Source of the DNA: the human T2T-CHM13v2.0 reference genome, Homo sapiens
NCBI RefSeq assembly: GCF_009914755.1
Contig: NC_060932.1
Strand: one strand, 5' to 3'
DNA: 64,000 nt
Below are positions 12,595 through 15,424 of the stretch, one piece after another (position 1 is the stretch's first letter; every line of letters begins with the position of its first letter). The notes under the pieces were generated by a model. That model saw only the letters and a list, made by a program, of their open reading frames with translations, had not been told where the DNA came from and made no database searches. The translations under genes were made by a program, and so were the position numbers.

Positions 12595-12724
12595 ATGAGC
12601 CGTGAATCTATGTAACCATATTACTTTGTGGAAAACAGCCAGCGGAGGGCAAGTTTAACAGCTCCACGGGGAAGCTCCAGGGACAGCTGTGCAAGAGTGT
12701 ACTGTTTTCAAGTACACATCGTTC

Positions 12725-13122
12725 TGTTGAAAGAAAAAAAACTTTAGACAAATTAAATTGAACAGAGTTTAATTGTGCAAAGAATGATTCATGAATCAGG
12801 CAACACCCAGAACAAGTGGAAGTTCAGAGAGCTCCCTGGGCAGGGATTATTTATAGACAGAAAACTGGAAGTACCCTACAGAAATAGCTTGATTGGTTAC
12901 AACTCCGGCATCTGCCTTTTTTGGACATGGTCTGATCAGTGGGTAGCCTGTGATTAGCGGAAGTTCGGTTGCTATGACTGGCTGTGACACAGCTATTTGT
13001 TACAAAAATATGCTCCTAAATTAGGCTTTCGGTTTGTTTACCTACTGAGTTAGGTTGTGGCTCCTGACACAGAAACTCAAGGTATGGAGGCAGCCTCAGG
13101 CCAAAAATAAGTTAATTTAACA
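12725..13122 (-). mobile_element. MER57-family ERV1 solo LTR inserted in the GARIN-like pseudogene
   Basis: Reverse complement starts TGTTAAATTAAC...GGCCTGAGGCTGCCTCC and ends AATTAAACTCTGTTCAATTTAATTTGTCTAAAG...CAACA; degenerate 4-bp TSD GTTC/GATT. Confidence 0.8.
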
Positions 13123-13273
13123 GATTTTTGAAAGAGACTTTTTCCAGATAGCAAAAGAAGAGCGATGATCCATCTATACACCACGGGAATGGTGGCTGTG
13201 GACCTTGTATCCACCAGCACCAGCCGGGAAATACCTGACGCCATGCTGCTGGGCTGACCAGAAGTAGCTGAGA

Positions 13274-13589
13274 GGCTGGGCATGGTGGCTCACACCTGTA
13301 ATACAGGCACTTTGGGAGGCTGAGGCAGGTGGATCACCTGAGGTCAGGAGTCCGAGACCAGCCTGGCCAACATGGTGAAACCCCGTCTCTACTAAAAATA
13401 CACACACACACAAAAACTAGCTGAGCATGGCAGCAGACACCTGTAATAGCAGCTACTTAGGAGGCTGAGGCAGGAGAATCACTTGAATCCAGGAGGTAGA
13501 GGTTGCAGTGAGCCGAGATTACACCACTGCACTCCAGCCTGGGTGACAGAGCGAGACTCCGTCTCAAAAAAAAAAATTAAAAAAAAAAA
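13274..13589 (+). mobile_element. Alu (AluSx-like) inserted in the GARIN-like pseudogene
   Basis: Full dimer; TSD-like aagt(a/g)gctg. Confidence 0.92.
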
Positions 13590-14756
13590 GTGGCTGGGCT
13601 GAGACATCCAGGGTAGAGGCTGTAGGCCTGTAAAGACCTTCGAGGCAACAGGGCTGCCTCCTTGAGGTTTGTAAAGACAGTCATCCACAGTCATGACAAC
13701 AGTTCCACCTGAAGCTTGCCAATGGCCACTCATTTCACCTGCAGCCGTGCCCCTGCAGATGCAAAAGATCTGGAAAAACCTTGTTTATCCCCTAAGACCA
13801 CCAATGGAGGCTTAAATCTGTACCCAGGCCATCCCACTGAGGACACAATGGGAATACCTGTGTGGAAGGCAGAGCCCAGCGGCCATGGTGCTCCGTGGAG
13901 AAGAGAATCTGCATCAGGCCGGCATTAGGAACTTCCCATGGTCTCTAAGGTGCTTGGGGTCACCTCCTCTGATTATGCTGAGGGGGAAGAAATTCAACAC
14001 GTCTCCAGCACATGTGTTCATGGAAGGGCACTCTTCTTCATTCTAATTGCAATGCAACCAGTGCTCAATGAAGGGGCAACAGTAGCGGTAACAACAGGCA
14101 CCAAAGCAAGTGCTATGGACACACAGGCCACCCAGTCTGCAGACTCAGAGCACATTAAAACAGCACCAGCAAGAGCAGCCTTTGTGGATCCAGTAGGACA
14201 TGGAACCAGCACATCAAGGCAGGTGTGCTCAGAGGATCTTTAGGTAGTTGGAGCAACTGCTTACAAGCACTTCCCTGTGCTCAGAGGCTACGTCCTGCAT
14301 GCCAGGAGGAGCTTCTGGTCTCTCCCCAGAGAGCAGCCCAAGTGTGGTGGCTGAAGGAGCGGAAATGACTGGCAAGCCTGCTGCAGAAACAGTTAAAGGC
14401 CTAATGGCAGGACCCCTCGTCTGGGCCTTGCTGATGAAGGATACGCGAGTGAATGGATGAGATGGAAGCCAGAAAGTCTCCCATCCCAAGACTGAAGCCC
14501 AGAGAGAGAGAGAAAGGTAAAGGACAGAACTCCCACAAGACGCCATTGCCATCACCAAAGGACTGGGGCACACAAGTCAACCCTATGAGCATTCATCTTC
14601 TGGTCCTGAGCAGAAGATGATCCCTGCAAGGGACCAATAGGGATGAAAAAATGAAAAGGCTAGAGCAGTTCGGGAGGCTGAGGACGTGGCTTCTCCTCTC
14701 TATGAAAATGCCAGTCCCGTTCTCCCCACAAAGGAGTCTAGGTTATCTCAAAAACT

Positions 14757-14896
14757 GCTGGGGAGCACACACCTATACTGGCAGCTACTCAGGAGACTGA
14801 GGCGGGAGGATCCCTTGAGCCCAGGAATCCAACACCAGCCTGGGCGACATAACAGTACCTGTCTCAAATAATAATAAGAAGAAGAAGAAGAAGAAG
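14757..14896 (+). mobile_element. Alu monomer (FLAM-like) with (AAT)/(AAG)n tail, inside the pseudogene
   Basis: cagctactcaggagactgaggcgggaggatcccttgagcccagg...ctgtctc followed by the tail. Confidence 0.8.
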
Positions 14897-15424
14897 GGAG
14901 AGTCAAACTATGACAAGTTTAGGGTCTTAAGCAAAAATAACTCTTTGCGAAGTTCAGAACCTGCTTTACTCACCTGGAAGAGAGTAGAGAGGTGGAATCA
15001 AGTTTGAGACAGTAGAAAAGGGCAGCATGGAACACCACACAGTCAGGCAGAGTGTGGCAGGGGCTGGGGATCACTGGGACCATAGCCGAGATGAGGGGGA
15101 CAGTAACTTTAAAGCCCATCAAAAAAGGAATCAGAGCATGGAGACCAAGGGGTTTCTGATTTAGGTGGCCTTGATTTAAGTAAATAAGTACAAACAAAAT
15201 ACATTCTTAGAATGAAAAAAAAAAAAACCTGTTAGCTATCATCCAAAGGCACACGTCATTTCATCATGAAACTCACGTATATGCATTGGGAAGAAGCATT
15301 GTTTGAGGTAGGAACGGAAGAGTCGCACACCTGAGTGAAAGGGTGACCATGGCTTGTGCTGGTCAGCAGGAGTTTCTTACCTTCCTTCTTTTTCTCCAAA
15401 AGGCATACATTTCACTATTGAGCT

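What the first reader, a model, noticed from the sequence alone, without database searches (positions are those of the whole stretch)
12595..15227. Hidden full-length GARIN/FAM71-family retrogene fossil upstream of LONRF1
Seen: after removing a MER57 LTR, an Alu and a FLAM, the plus strand reads colinearly from a Kozak ATG (12595) to ...TVT/FKAH (15119), a short 3'UTR with AATACA and an A13 tail. No introns are visible. Disabling lesions include TAA 12613, TGA 13255 and TGA 14458 (the last two at Arg positions, probably CGA>TGA) and several frameshifts. Knowledge (from memory): segments match GARIN3/FAM71B and GARIN4/FAM71A, testis RAB2-binding proteins with a DUF3699 domain (PYY, GKLQ.QL, FKY..FE.DF.QI, PD.MLL, LKLA.G..F.LQ.CP, W..L.Y.LRPP.E). 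It looks mosaic: FNS.TGKLQ, LRPPME, EDTM..PV, MVS.V.G.TS and TVTF.AH are GARIN4-like, while GRG.RPVKT, EIQH and DGSQKVS are GARIN3-like. Inference: an independent, old family member rather than a recent copy of either gene, possibly intact in other mammals (a lost testis retrogene).
Basis: partly seen in the sequence, partly recalled or inferred. Interest (0 to 1): 0.8.

Follow-up and report, generated by a model that had tools for sequence, protein, structure and literature searches.

The report
Ancient dead GARIN (FAM71) gene copy
This is a roughly 100-million-year-old, thoroughly broken, intron-less copy of a testis gene of the GARIN/FAM71 family, one of several such relics in the human genome; it is a real but ordinary processed pseudogene.

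Summary
Window 12547-15227 (+) is a full-length, colinear relic of a GARIN3/4/6-type gene, split by a ~400-nt LTR-like repeat, an Alu and an Alu-monomer. A frameshift-aware alignment scores 395 against GARIN3, versus 49±7 for shuffles.

It is a processed copy:
- It is seamless where GARIN3 and GARIN6 share an intron.
- Homology starts 48 nt before the ATG.
- Homology ends at a polyadenylation signal shared with two other fossils, followed by A13.

It is not a GARIN3/GARIN4 mosaic. DNA and protein trees put it with GARIN6 and the fossils on chr14 and chr16, outside crown GARIN6. Support falls when more fossils are added.

Its private substitutions are spread evenly over codon positions (20/110, 26/129, 11/71). 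That indicates neutral decay for nearly its whole history, K about 0.21.

No intact orthologue could be shown. Laurasiatherians keep an intact "GARIN6-like" gene, but no link to this fossil is resolved, and synteny cannot be tested here.

A whole-genome scan with GARIN6 protein finds six other fossils and misses this one. The supplied RefSeq table does not list it.

Verdict: real, old, dead; low to moderate interest.

The parts
12547..12594 (+). Remnant of the parental 5'UTR. Homology to the GARIN6 locus starts here, 48 nt before the ATG; homology to GARIN3 and the chr9 fossil starts at 12570/12571.
   Evidence: Local DNA alignments. No homology was found further upstream.
12595..12714 (+). 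Coding relic, part 1 (about residues 1-40). ATG at 12595; TAA at 12613; frameshifts.
   Evidence: DNA block 12547-12714 aligns to the GARIN6 locus at 70%.
12723..13123 (.). Insertion of a ~400-nt dispersed repeat with discrete ends, LTR-like.
   Evidence: 1393 first-look candidates in the genome; 40 were scored, and the 39 other than the query itself match query positions ~6-406 at 72-77% identity. The insertion is bridged by the GARIN6 alignment.
13124..13267 (+). Coding relic, part 2 (about residues 45-95). TGA at 13255 at an Arg position.
13271..13605 (+). Full-length Alu insertion with an A-rich tail.
   Evidence: 72-89% identity to Alus that happen to lie in the other fetched loci. Bridged by the GARIN6 alignment and by the jump alignment.
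13606..14756 (+). Coding relic, part 3. Contains the frameshifted remnant of the RAB2-binding domain (~13615-13821), the seamless exon1/exon2 junction (~13883/13884), the 'SSDYAEGEEIQH' motif, the Ala/Gly/Ser-rich middle, and TGA at 14458.
   Evidence: The junction was read.
14757..14900 (+). Alu-monomer-like insertion (FLAM-like) with a (GAA)n/A-rich tail.
   Evidence: 14765-14888 matches the left arms of Alus at 70-83%. Jump alignment.
14901..15122 (+). Coding relic, part 4, up to the C-terminal '...TVT(F)KAH' that ends at 15119.
   Evidence: Colinear with the chr14 and chr16 fossils (68-71%).
15123..15214 (+). 3'UTR remnant. AAATAA at 15182-15187 (AATAAG at 15183-15188) aligns with AATAAA in the chr14 fossil and AAATAA in the chr16 fossil. 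AATACA at 15198-15203 is shared with the chr16 fossil.
   Evidence: homology with the chr16 fossil runs to 15206, with the chr14 fossil to 15187.
15215..15227 (+). A13 run, read as the remnant of the poly(A) tail of the retroposed mRNA.
   Evidence: It begins 9 nt after the last base homologous to the chr16 fossil.
11977..12723 (-). Last exon of LINC03019 (annotation supplied with the finding). Its acceptor sits at the edge of the LTR-like insert, and the exon covers the fossil's 5' end in antisense.
   Evidence: Hub table. 'ct' at 12724-12725 on the + strand is AG on the - strand.
13858..14042 (-). Internal exon of LINC03019, made entirely of fossil sequence read in antisense.
   Evidence: Hub table. 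'ct' at 14043-14044 and 'ac' at 13856-13857 on the + strand are AG and GT on the - strand.

Best explanation
Window 12547-15227 is an ancient processed pseudogene. A spliced, polyadenylated mRNA of a full-length (~600-residue type) gene of the GARIN3/4/6 subfamily was reverse-transcribed and inserted upstream of what is now LONRF1. The source most probably lay on the stem lineage of GARIN6 (FAM71C), before that gene was shortened to ~240 residues.

The insertion happened at about or before the radiation of placental mammals, very roughly 90-140 million years ago. That date is an inference from K of about 0.21-0.27 and a recalled human-lineage neutral rate.

The copy shows no sign of ever having been under protein-level constraint and has decayed neutrally since. 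It was later split by an LTR-like element, an Alu and an Alu monomer.

It encodes nothing today. Its only present 'use' is passive: two exons of the antisense lncRNA LINC03019 and a RefSeq-listed enhancer interval overlap it.

Shown here: family identity, colinearity, lack of the intron, limits of homology, the A-tail, and the flat codon-position pattern. Inferred: the GARIN6-stem parent, the age, and that it was dead on arrival.
For: Family and full length:
- Frameshift-aware alignments score 395/303/216 against shuffle means of 36-49.
- The read-through translation (X at breaks) scores 101-107 bits against a profile of the human GARIN3/4/6 N-terminal regions. The best of 300 shuffles scores 3.8 bits.
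- The genome-wide DNA search hits only GARIN loci and GARIN fossils.

Processed origin:
- GARIN3 has a 1904-nt phase-0 intron after '...SLV'. GARIN6 has a 498-nt phase-0 intron after '...SPV'. The two intron starts are alike.
- The fossil runs straight from exon-1-like into exon-2-like sequence at ~13883/13884.
- Homology starts 48 nt before the ATG.
- Homology ends at 15187-15206, after a polyadenylation hexamer shared with the chr14 and chr16 fossils, and is followed by A13.

GARIN6 affinity:
- Four colinear DNA blocks at 68-70% match the GARIN6 locus. One of them lies in its 3'UTR, beyond the GARIN6 stop.
- The 7-taxon DNA tree groups (psi8, psi14, psi16, GARIN6) at 100/99.
- Protein trees place it in a GARIN6 super-clade at SH-aLRT 99 (58 rows) and 97 (36 rows).
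- It shares 2 of 4 informative GARIN6-specific states, against 2 of 12 for GARIN3 and 1 of 9 for GARIN4.

Neutral decay, counted at sites where GARIN3 = GARIN4 = GARIN6:
- Fossil-private changes at codon positions 1/2/3 are 20/110, 26/129 and 11/71 in a DNA-level alignment (chi-square p 0.72).
- They are 30/143, 39/144 and 24/121 in a protein-anchored alignment, where the three genes' own private changes were 7/3/17, 13/6/18 and 13/3/12.

Age:
- K is about 0.21.
- It branches outside crown GARIN6, which already includes afrotherians.
- The LTR-like insert's copies are 72-77% alike.
Against: - Pfam's own model PF12480 does not detect it. 0 of 16 single-frame pieces matched at E<=1, and the genome scan with PF12480 listed 18 places, none of them here.
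- The GARIN6 grouping weakens with more fossils. The 9-taxon DNA tree gives 80/87 for the group, 65/48 for psi8+GARIN6, and no clear support with N-terminal codons alone.
- The AU test does not reject psi8 with GARIN3 (lnL difference 15.0, p 0.122). The matching test for GARIN4 did not finish.
- The Nei-Gojobori estimate on the fossil's branch is omega 0.50, with a bootstrap interval of 0.18-1.46 on only 45 codons. That interval overlaps GARIN6's 0.29. Neutral simulations give a median of 0.67-0.79, and 17-29% of them fall at or below 0.50. This measure therefore does not by itself exclude a short functional phase.
- In the GARIN4-anchored alignment, transitions do not exceed transversions (52:59). 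This is a sign of misaligned codons, which would flatten any codon-position signal.
- GARIN4 also lacks the intron. If the parent had been GARIN4-like, the missing intron would not prove retroposition.
- No clear target-site duplication was found. There is only a 9-of-12 match, 12532-12543 against 15228-15239, seen by eye and close to chance.
- A pure A13 run is unusually well kept for this age.
Confidence: 0.8

Rival explanations
1. Lost gene. The copy was a working testis retrogene for a substantial time and died on the lineage to primates. The intact ~390-437-residue 'GARIN6-like / FAM71C-like' gene of Laurasiatherian mammals is its surviving orthologue.
For: - Laurasiatherians carry an intact GARIN6-like gene in addition to GARIN6. 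The two sit on contigs of different length in Canis aureus, Halichoerus grypus, Erinaceus europaeus and Hipposideros larvatus.
- No primate, rodent or lagomorph member appears among the listed hits: 120 shown of 432 and 120 shown of 185.
- That clade, the fossil, psi14, psi16 and GARIN6 form one unresolved super-clade.
- Bat and bear GARIN6-like proteins align to the fossil over 371-384 codons at 44% identity.
Against: - There is no codon-position bias on the fossil's own branch in three alignments. From the protein-anchored counts I estimate that at most about a fifth of its history could have been under GARIN-like constraint. This is my own arithmetic on the counts.
- The fossil shares 2 GARIN6-like-specific states and keeps the general state at 5. 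psi14 does no worse, at 3 and 8.
- The fossil, psi14 and psi16 all lack the ~73-residue deletion of the GARIN6-like proteins; the alignments need jumps of 211-226 nt.
- At least three other human fossils are equally good candidates.
Confidence: 0.12
2. DNA-level duplicate. The relic descends from a segmental or dispersed DNA duplication of an already intron-less GARIN4-like gene, not from retroposition of its own.
For: - GARIN4 is intron-less across the same junction, so the missing intron alone is not proof.
- No convincing target-site duplication was found.
- The AU test does not reject non-GARIN6 placements.
Against: - Homology is confined to the transcript. It starts 48 nt before the ATG and ends at the polyadenylation site, followed by A13.
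- The chr14 and chr16 fossils end at the same place with unrelated flanks.
- The fossil shares only 1 of 9 informative GARIN4-specific states.
- Trees place it away from GARIN4.
Confidence: 0.05
3. Exapted non-coding element. The relic is kept today because it supplies exons and splice sites to LINC03019 and part of an enhancer.
For: - The hub table lists LINC03019 exons at 11977-12723 and 13858-14042 (- strand) and an enhancer at 13058-13267.
- Canonical AG/GT sites flank the exon at 13858-14042, and an AG acceptor borders the last exon at 12723.
Against: - Divergence of the fossil is as high as expected for neutral DNA (K about 0.21), and substitutions are evenly spread.
- Nothing here tests conservation or function of the lncRNA. 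The two papers that mention LINC03019 were seen only as search listings and are association studies.
Confidence: 0.03

Closest known systems
GARIN6 / FAM71C (human chr12; locus L019)
   Same: - Best DNA-level match: four colinear blocks at 68-70%, including the 5'UTR and a block in the GARIN6 3'UTR.
- 51% residue identity over 153 codons.
- Grouped with it in the DNA and protein trees.
   Different: - GARIN6 is intact, has a 498-nt intron and stops at the 'YAGEE' position (~240 residues).
- The fossil has no intron, is full length to '...TVTFKAH', and is broken by 4-8 stops and 11-18 frameshifts.
GARIN3 / FAM71B and GARIN4 / FAM71A (human chr5 and chr1)
   Same: - Colinear over nearly the whole protein: residues 1-565 of 605 for GARIN3 and 1-542 of 594 for GARIN4.
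- Shared motifs across the N-terminal RAB2-binding region and at 'AYAGGEG', 'DGSQKVS' and the C-terminus.
- According to PMC11236154 (abstract and passages seen), these are testis-predominant RAB2 interactors needed for acrosome formation.
   Different: - The fossil lacks most of their clade-specific residues: it shares 2 of 12 and 1 of 9.
- About 30% nucleotide divergence.
- Not functional.
Other human GARIN3/4/6-type fossils: chr14:79.21 Mb, chr16:66.71 Mb, chr9:25.95 Mb, chr8:79.95 Mb, chr2:84.85 Mb, chrX:52.73 Mb (T2T coordinates)
   Same: - All are broken, similarly diverged copies with no intron at the junction (36-52% residue identity to living GARINs; 2-10 stops).
- The chr14 and chr16 copies share the fossil's 3'UTR and polyadenylation hexamer.
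   Different: - The others are found by a plain protein-versus-genome scan; this one is not.
- The chr9 copy goes with GARIN3 (6 of 8 specific states) and the chr2 copy leans to GARIN4 (5 of 10).
Laurasiatherian 'GARIN6-like / FAM71C-like' proteins (for example P0143, a bat; P0275, a bear)
   Same: - Same super-clade.
- 44% identity over 371-384 codons.
   Different: - Intact, 390-437 residues, with a ~73-residue deletion that the fossil lacks.
- The fossil shares only 2 of their specific states and keeps the general state at 5.

Membership tests
GARIN / FAM71 family (Pfam PF12480, GARIL_Rab2_bd) | Match to the curated Pfam model of the RAB2-binding domain | tested here: not met
   0 of 16 single-frame pieces matched PF12480 at E<=1. 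The six-frame genome scan with PF12480 listed 18 places, none in this window. The domain region (~13615-13821) is cut by three or four frameshifts, so no single frame carries enough of it.
GARIN / FAM71 family (Pfam PF12480, GARIL_Rab2_bd) | Significant similarity of the read-through translation to the N-terminal GARIN region, which includes the RAB2-binding domain | tested here: met
   A profile of human GARIN3/4/6 (206 positions) against the translation with X at breaks gives 101-107 bits, E 4e-35 to 3e-33 for a single target. The best of 300 shuffles gives 3.8 bits.
GARIN / FAM71 family (Pfam PF12480, GARIL_Rab2_bd) | Colinear similarity along the whole protein, C-terminus included | tested here: met
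GARIN / FAM71 family (Pfam PF12480, GARIL_Rab2_bd) | Open reading frame able to give a RAB2-binding protein | tested here: not met
   4-8 in-frame stops and 11-18 frameshifts. The longest open + strand frame here is 104 codons.
Processed pseudogene (retrocopy) | Lacks an intron that the parental lineage has | tested here: met
   GARIN3 and GARIN6 share a phase-0 intron with similar 5' ends. The fossil is seamless at ~13883/13884. Caveat: GARIN4 also lacks this intron.
Processed pseudogene (retrocopy) | Homology confined to the mature transcript | tested here: met
   It starts at 12547 and ends at 15187-15206.
Processed pseudogene (retrocopy) | Poly(A) tract just after a polyadenylation signal | tested here: met
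   A13 at 15215-15227, 26 nt after AATAAG (15183-15188). That hexamer aligns with AATAAA/AAATAA in the chr14 and chr16 fossils.
Processed pseudogene (retrocopy) | Flanking target-site duplication | tested here: inconclusive
   Only a 9-of-12 match, 12532-12543 against 15228-15239, read by eye. My rough estimate puts this near chance.
Once-functional retrogene (later lost) | Purifying selection on its own branch | tested here: not met
   The codon-position pattern is flat in three alignments. Omega is 0.50 (0.18-1.46) on 45 codons, within the neutral simulation range.
Once-functional retrogene (later lost) | Intact orthologue at the syntenic site in other mammals | not testable with these tools
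   No non-human mammalian genome is held. Protein trees leave the relation to the Laurasiatherian GARIN6-like gene unresolved.

The most novel reading that the evidence does not exclude
The fossil is the dead human counterpart of the intact 'GARIN6-like' gene that bats, carnivores, horses, rhinos, camelids, pangolin and hedgehog still carry. On this reading a ninth GARIN testis gene existed in the common ancestor of Boreoeutheria and was lost on the lineage to primates and rodents. More broadly, GARIN6 was once a full-length ~600-residue protein that seeded a burst of copies early in placental evolution.
Probability: 0.12. Interest if true: 0.45.

Novelty: new member of a known kind. Interest (0 to 1): 0.25.

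Why it matters
In itself it matters little. Old processed pseudogenes of germline-expressed genes are common, and this one shows no sign of function. Three side results have some value.

1. Detection. The fossil escapes both a Pfam-model scan and a protein scan of the whole genome, and it is absent from the RefSeq table supplied with the finding. It shows what standard pseudogene annotation can miss once a copy is split by repeats and frameshifts.

2. GARIN6 history. This fossil and the chr14 and chr16 fossils preserve a full-length C-terminal half and 3'UTR that living GARIN6 has lost. The human GARIN6 3'UTR still holds a relic of that half. This suggests GARIN6 was shortened after these copies were made.

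3. Family history. The human genome holds at least seven such fossils of a family needed for acrosome formation, while Laurasiatherians keep an extra intact member. That gives a concrete, testable picture of gene birth and loss in a male-fertility gene family.

Tried and rejected
- Pfam on 16 stop-to-stop pieces gave no GARIN hit. One piece gave a weak SQS_PSY match below its cut-off (E 0.041), taken as chance.
- Rfam on 11500-16500 gave nothing.
- In the first tblastn, my 'longest ORF' queries for several loci turned out to be Alu translations. Those rows were ignored, and proper coding sequences were defined.
- I looked for a living protein clearly closer to the fossil than the human paralogues. 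Among 150 cluster representatives the best was 50% identical, against 51% for human GARIN6. Since the fossil has itself decayed by about 20-25% per nucleotide, identity cannot reveal an orthologue, so this test is uninformative rather than negative.
- Chromosome identity of the dog or seal GARIN6-like gene cannot be read from contig lengths. I dropped this.
- The second AU test (fossil with GARIN4) did not finish in time and was not repeated.
- The codon-anchored 7-taxon alignment gives inflated distances (0.41-0.66). I used it for topology only, not for dating.
- Literature searches: 'GARIN/FAM71/pseudogene', 'LINC03019', and 'FAM71C/GARIN6/retrogene/retrocopy/processed pseudogene'. None of the 29 listed papers (15, 2 and 12) describes a GARIN pseudogene, judging by titles and abstract starts. 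In one search none of the 12 listed papers holds FAM71C or GARIN6 at all.
- PMC11236154 has 0 occurrences of 'pseudogene' or 'retro' in its main text.
- Supplements of PMC2584115 (6 files) hold no FAM71A/B/C. Those of PMC4772013 could not be read and may list retrocopies of these genes.
- The name MER57 and the Alu subfamily could not be checked, because no repeat library is on hand.
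Full report
WHAT IS THERE. The window is human chr8 (T2T) just upstream of LONRF1. On the + strand from 12547 to 15227 lies a relic of a GARIN (FAM71) gene.
- ATG at 12595.
- TAA at 12613.
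- TGA at 13255 and 14458, both at positions where the living paralogues have Arg.
- A C-terminal '...TVT(F)KAH' ending at 15119.
- AATACA at 15198-15203 and a run of 13 A at 15215-15227.

Three younger insertions split the relic.
- 12723-13123 is a ~400-nt dispersed repeat with discrete ends. The genome holds 1393 first-look candidates. Forty were scored, and the 39 other than the query itself match nearly its full length at 72-77%. It is LTR-like.
- 13271-13605 is a full Alu.
- 14757-14900 is an Alu-monomer-like piece with a GAA/A-rich tail.

A protein-to-DNA alignment that allows long jumps found these insertions again on its own. The DNA alignment to the GARIN6 locus bridges the first two.

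IS IT MORE THAN CHANCE. Yes.
- I wrote a local protein-versus-DNA aligner with frameshifts. It scores the repeat-excised stretch at 395 against human GARIN3 (44% identity over 391 codons), 303 against GARIN4 (35% over 457) and 216 against GARIN6 (51% over 153).
- Fifteen shuffles of each protein gave means of 49, 48 and 36 (maxima 66, 60, 41). Reversed proteins gave 38-62, and the opposite strand gave 41-56.
- A whole-genome DNA search with 13600-14756 returned itself and five other places, all of them GARIN genes or GARIN fossils, at 65-72% identity.
- The read-through translation with X at each break scores 101-107 bits against a profile of the N-terminal regions of human GARIN3/4/6. The best of 300 shuffles scores 3.8 bits.

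Against this, Pfam's own PF12480 model sees nothing. 0 of 16 single-frame pieces matched, and the genome scan with that model lists 18 places but not this one. The domain remnant (~13615-13821) is cut by several frameshifts. A genome scan with GARIN6 protein lists 25 places, again not this one. 'Hidden' is therefore a fair word.

HOW IT AROSE. Human GARIN3 has a 1904-nt phase-0 intron after '...SLV'. Human GARIN6 has a 498-nt phase-0 intron after '...SPV', with donor GTGAGT and an acceptor ahead of 'GYAMKF...'. The first bases of the two introns are clearly alike, so the intron predates the GARIN3/GARIN6 split.

The fossil passes from exon-1-like to exon-2-like sequence without a break at about 13883/13884. 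Homology to GARIN6 begins 48 nt before the ATG, and nothing further upstream aligns. At the 3' end:
- Homology to the chr16 fossil runs to 15206 and to the chr14 fossil to 15187.
- All three share an AATAAA-like hexamer (15182-15188 here).
- Their downstream flanks are unrelated.
- Here the A13 run starts 9 nt after the last homologous base.

These are the marks of a retroposed, spliced, polyadenylated mRNA. Two caveats apply. I found no convincing target-site duplication, only a 9-of-12 match next to both ends, which is near chance. GARIN4 also lacks the intron, so the intron argument depends on the parent not being GARIN4-like.

WHICH GARIN. Counting clade-specific residues gives a different picture. 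Each count is given against informative columns, meaning those where the fossil shows either the clade state or the general state.
- It shares 2 of 12 GARIN3-specific states.
- It shares 1 of 9 GARIN4-specific states.
- It shares 2 of 4 GARIN6-specific states.
- It shares 2 of 7 states specific to the Laurasiatherian GARIN6-like clade.

So the 'mosaic' is mostly retained ancestral states.

Trees agree on a GARIN6 affinity.
- A 58-row protein tree puts the fossil, with the chr14 and chr16 fossils, in a 40-row clade (SH-aLRT 99). That clade also holds true GARIN6, the Laurasiatherian GARIN6-like clade and a xenarthran clade.
- A 36-row full-length protein tree gives the same picture (27 rows, SH-aLRT 97). 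The fossil sits outside crown GARIN6 (99, afrotherians included) and outside crown GARIN6-like (100).
- A 7-taxon DNA tree of the human sequences groups (this fossil, chr14, chr16, GARIN6) at 100/99 and (chr9 fossil, GARIN3) at 95/92.
- The DNA-level matches agree. The longest colinear set is with the GARIN6 locus and includes a block that now lies in GARIN6's 3'UTR.

The placement is not secure.
- With two more fossils the DNA support falls to 80/87 for the group and 65/48 for fossil+GARIN6, and N-terminal codons alone resolve little.
- An AU test does not reject the fossil with GARIN3 (p 0.122). The GARIN4 test did not finish.
- These are long branches, and the protein trees used the quick search.

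DID IT EVER WORK. I counted changes private to the fossil at sites where GARIN3, GARIN4 and GARIN6 all agree, by codon position.
- In a DNA-level alignment that is not guided by protein (492 aligned nt, 79% identity, 25 gap events), the counts are 20/110, 26/129 and 11/71. Homogeneity p is 0.72 and K is about 0.21.
- In a GARIN3-anchored codon alignment they are 30/143, 39/144 and 24/121. On the 118 codons placed identically by two references they are 17/105, 24/105 and 10/89.
- In the same table the private changes of the living genes are 7/3/17, 13/6/18 and 13/3/12, the expected bias towards third positions.
- A GARIN4-anchored alignment is flat too (40/123, 47/146, 24/81). Its transition:transversion count of 52:59 shows that it holds misaligned codons, which flatten any signal.
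- A Nei-Gojobori estimate on 45 fully conserved ancestral codons gives omega 0.50 (0.18-1.46), against 0.10-0.12 for GARIN3/4 and 0.29 for GARIN6. Neutral simulations on the same codons give a median of 0.67-0.79, with 17-29% at or below 0.50.

Together these fit neutral decay for all or nearly all of the fossil's own history. From the counts I estimate that at most about a fifth of that history could have been under GARIN-like constraint. That figure is my own arithmetic and is rough.

AGE. K of about 0.21-0.27 on the fossil's branch, set against the roughly 0.17 substitutions per site that I recall for the human lineage since the human-mouse ancestor, suggests about 90-140 million years. The rate is recalled, not checked here. 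The fossil's position outside a crown GARIN6 that already includes afrotherians points the same way. The LTR-like insert, whose copies are 72-77% alike, gives a younger lower bound.

THE WIDER PICTURE.
- The human genome holds at least six more such fossils: chr14:79.21 Mb, chr16:66.71 Mb, chr9:25.95 Mb, chr8:79.95 Mb, chr2:84.85 Mb, and a weak one on chrX:52.73 Mb.
- True GARIN6 is ~240 residues in all placental groups listed and stops at the 'YAGEE' position. This fossil and the chr14 and chr16 fossils run the full ~600-residue length. Their source therefore still had the long form.
- Laurasiatherians carry an intact 390-437-residue 'GARIN6-like / FAM71C-like' gene besides GARIN6. No primate, rodent or lagomorph member appears among the rows listed. 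Those lists show the best 120 of 432 and 120 of 185 hits, so this absence is not proven.
- Whether one of the human fossils is that gene's dead counterpart is open, and nothing singles out this one.

PRESENT STATE. There is no coding potential; the longest open + strand frame is 104 codons. According to the annotation supplied with the finding, two exons of the antisense lncRNA LINC03019 (11977-12723 and 13858-14042) and a RefSeq enhancer interval (13058-13267) overlap the relic. The exon at 13858-14042 is flanked by AG and GT on the - strand, and an AG acceptor borders the last exon at 12723. I have no evidence that this matters.

WHAT IS KNOWN.
- GARINs are testis-predominant RAB2 interactors needed for acrosome and sperm-head formation. 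Human GARIN6 has no mouse counterpart (PMC11236154: abstract and passages seen).
- That paper's main text does not contain 'pseudogene' or 'retro'.
- Three literature searches and one readable set of retrocopy supplements turned up no description of GARIN pseudogenes.
- The supplements of PMC4772013 could not be read.
- GENCODE and the pseudogene databases could not be consulted.

VERDICT. The relic is best read as an ancient processed pseudogene from the GARIN6 stem lineage that was probably dead on arrival. The 'lost working gene' idea is not supported but is not excluded. Novelty is limited to a new, apparently unannotated member of a well-known kind.

Noticed in passing
L019:4220-4483 (human chr12, GARIN6 3'UTR): The 3'UTR of living GARIN6 still holds a recognisable relic of the C-terminal half found in GARIN3/4 and in the fossils. 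It is 68% identical to window 14127-14393. GARIN6 therefore looks like a shortened form of a once full-length gene.
   Followed up: partly
L015 (chr5) and L019 (chr12): GARIN3 and GARIN6 share a phase-0 intron at the same codon, with similar intron starts. GARIN4 is continuous there, so GARIN4 may itself descend from a retrocopy or have lost the intron precisely.
   Followed up: partly
L021 (chr8:79.95 Mb), L023 (chr2:84.85 Mb), L022 (chrX:52.73 Mb), L016 (chr14:79.21 Mb), L017 (chr16:66.71 Mb), L018 (chr9:25.95 Mb): There are six further broken GARIN3/4/6-type copies in the human genome. The chr2 copy is near full length and leans to GARIN4, the chr9 copy goes with GARIN3, and the chrX copy is weak and fragmentary.
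   Followed up: partly
Proteins P0143, P0270-P0283: Laurasiatherian mammals carry an intact 390-437-residue 'GARIN6-like' gene besides GARIN6. In Molossus molossus both lie on a contig of the same length. In jackal, grey seal, hedgehog and Hipposideros they lie on contigs of different lengths. Minke whale has many 'GARIN4-like' copies on one contig.
   Followed up: no
window 12532-12543 and 15228-15239: A 9-of-12 match (CCTGTGAGATGT / CCTGTTAGCTAT) sits just outside both ends of the relic. It is a possible decayed target-site duplication but is close to chance.
   Followed up: no
window 12723/12724 and 13858-14042 (- strand): The acceptor of the last LINC03019 exon lies exactly at the boundary between the fossil and the LTR-like insert. 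Another exon of that lncRNA is made wholly of antisense fossil sequence.
   Followed up: partly
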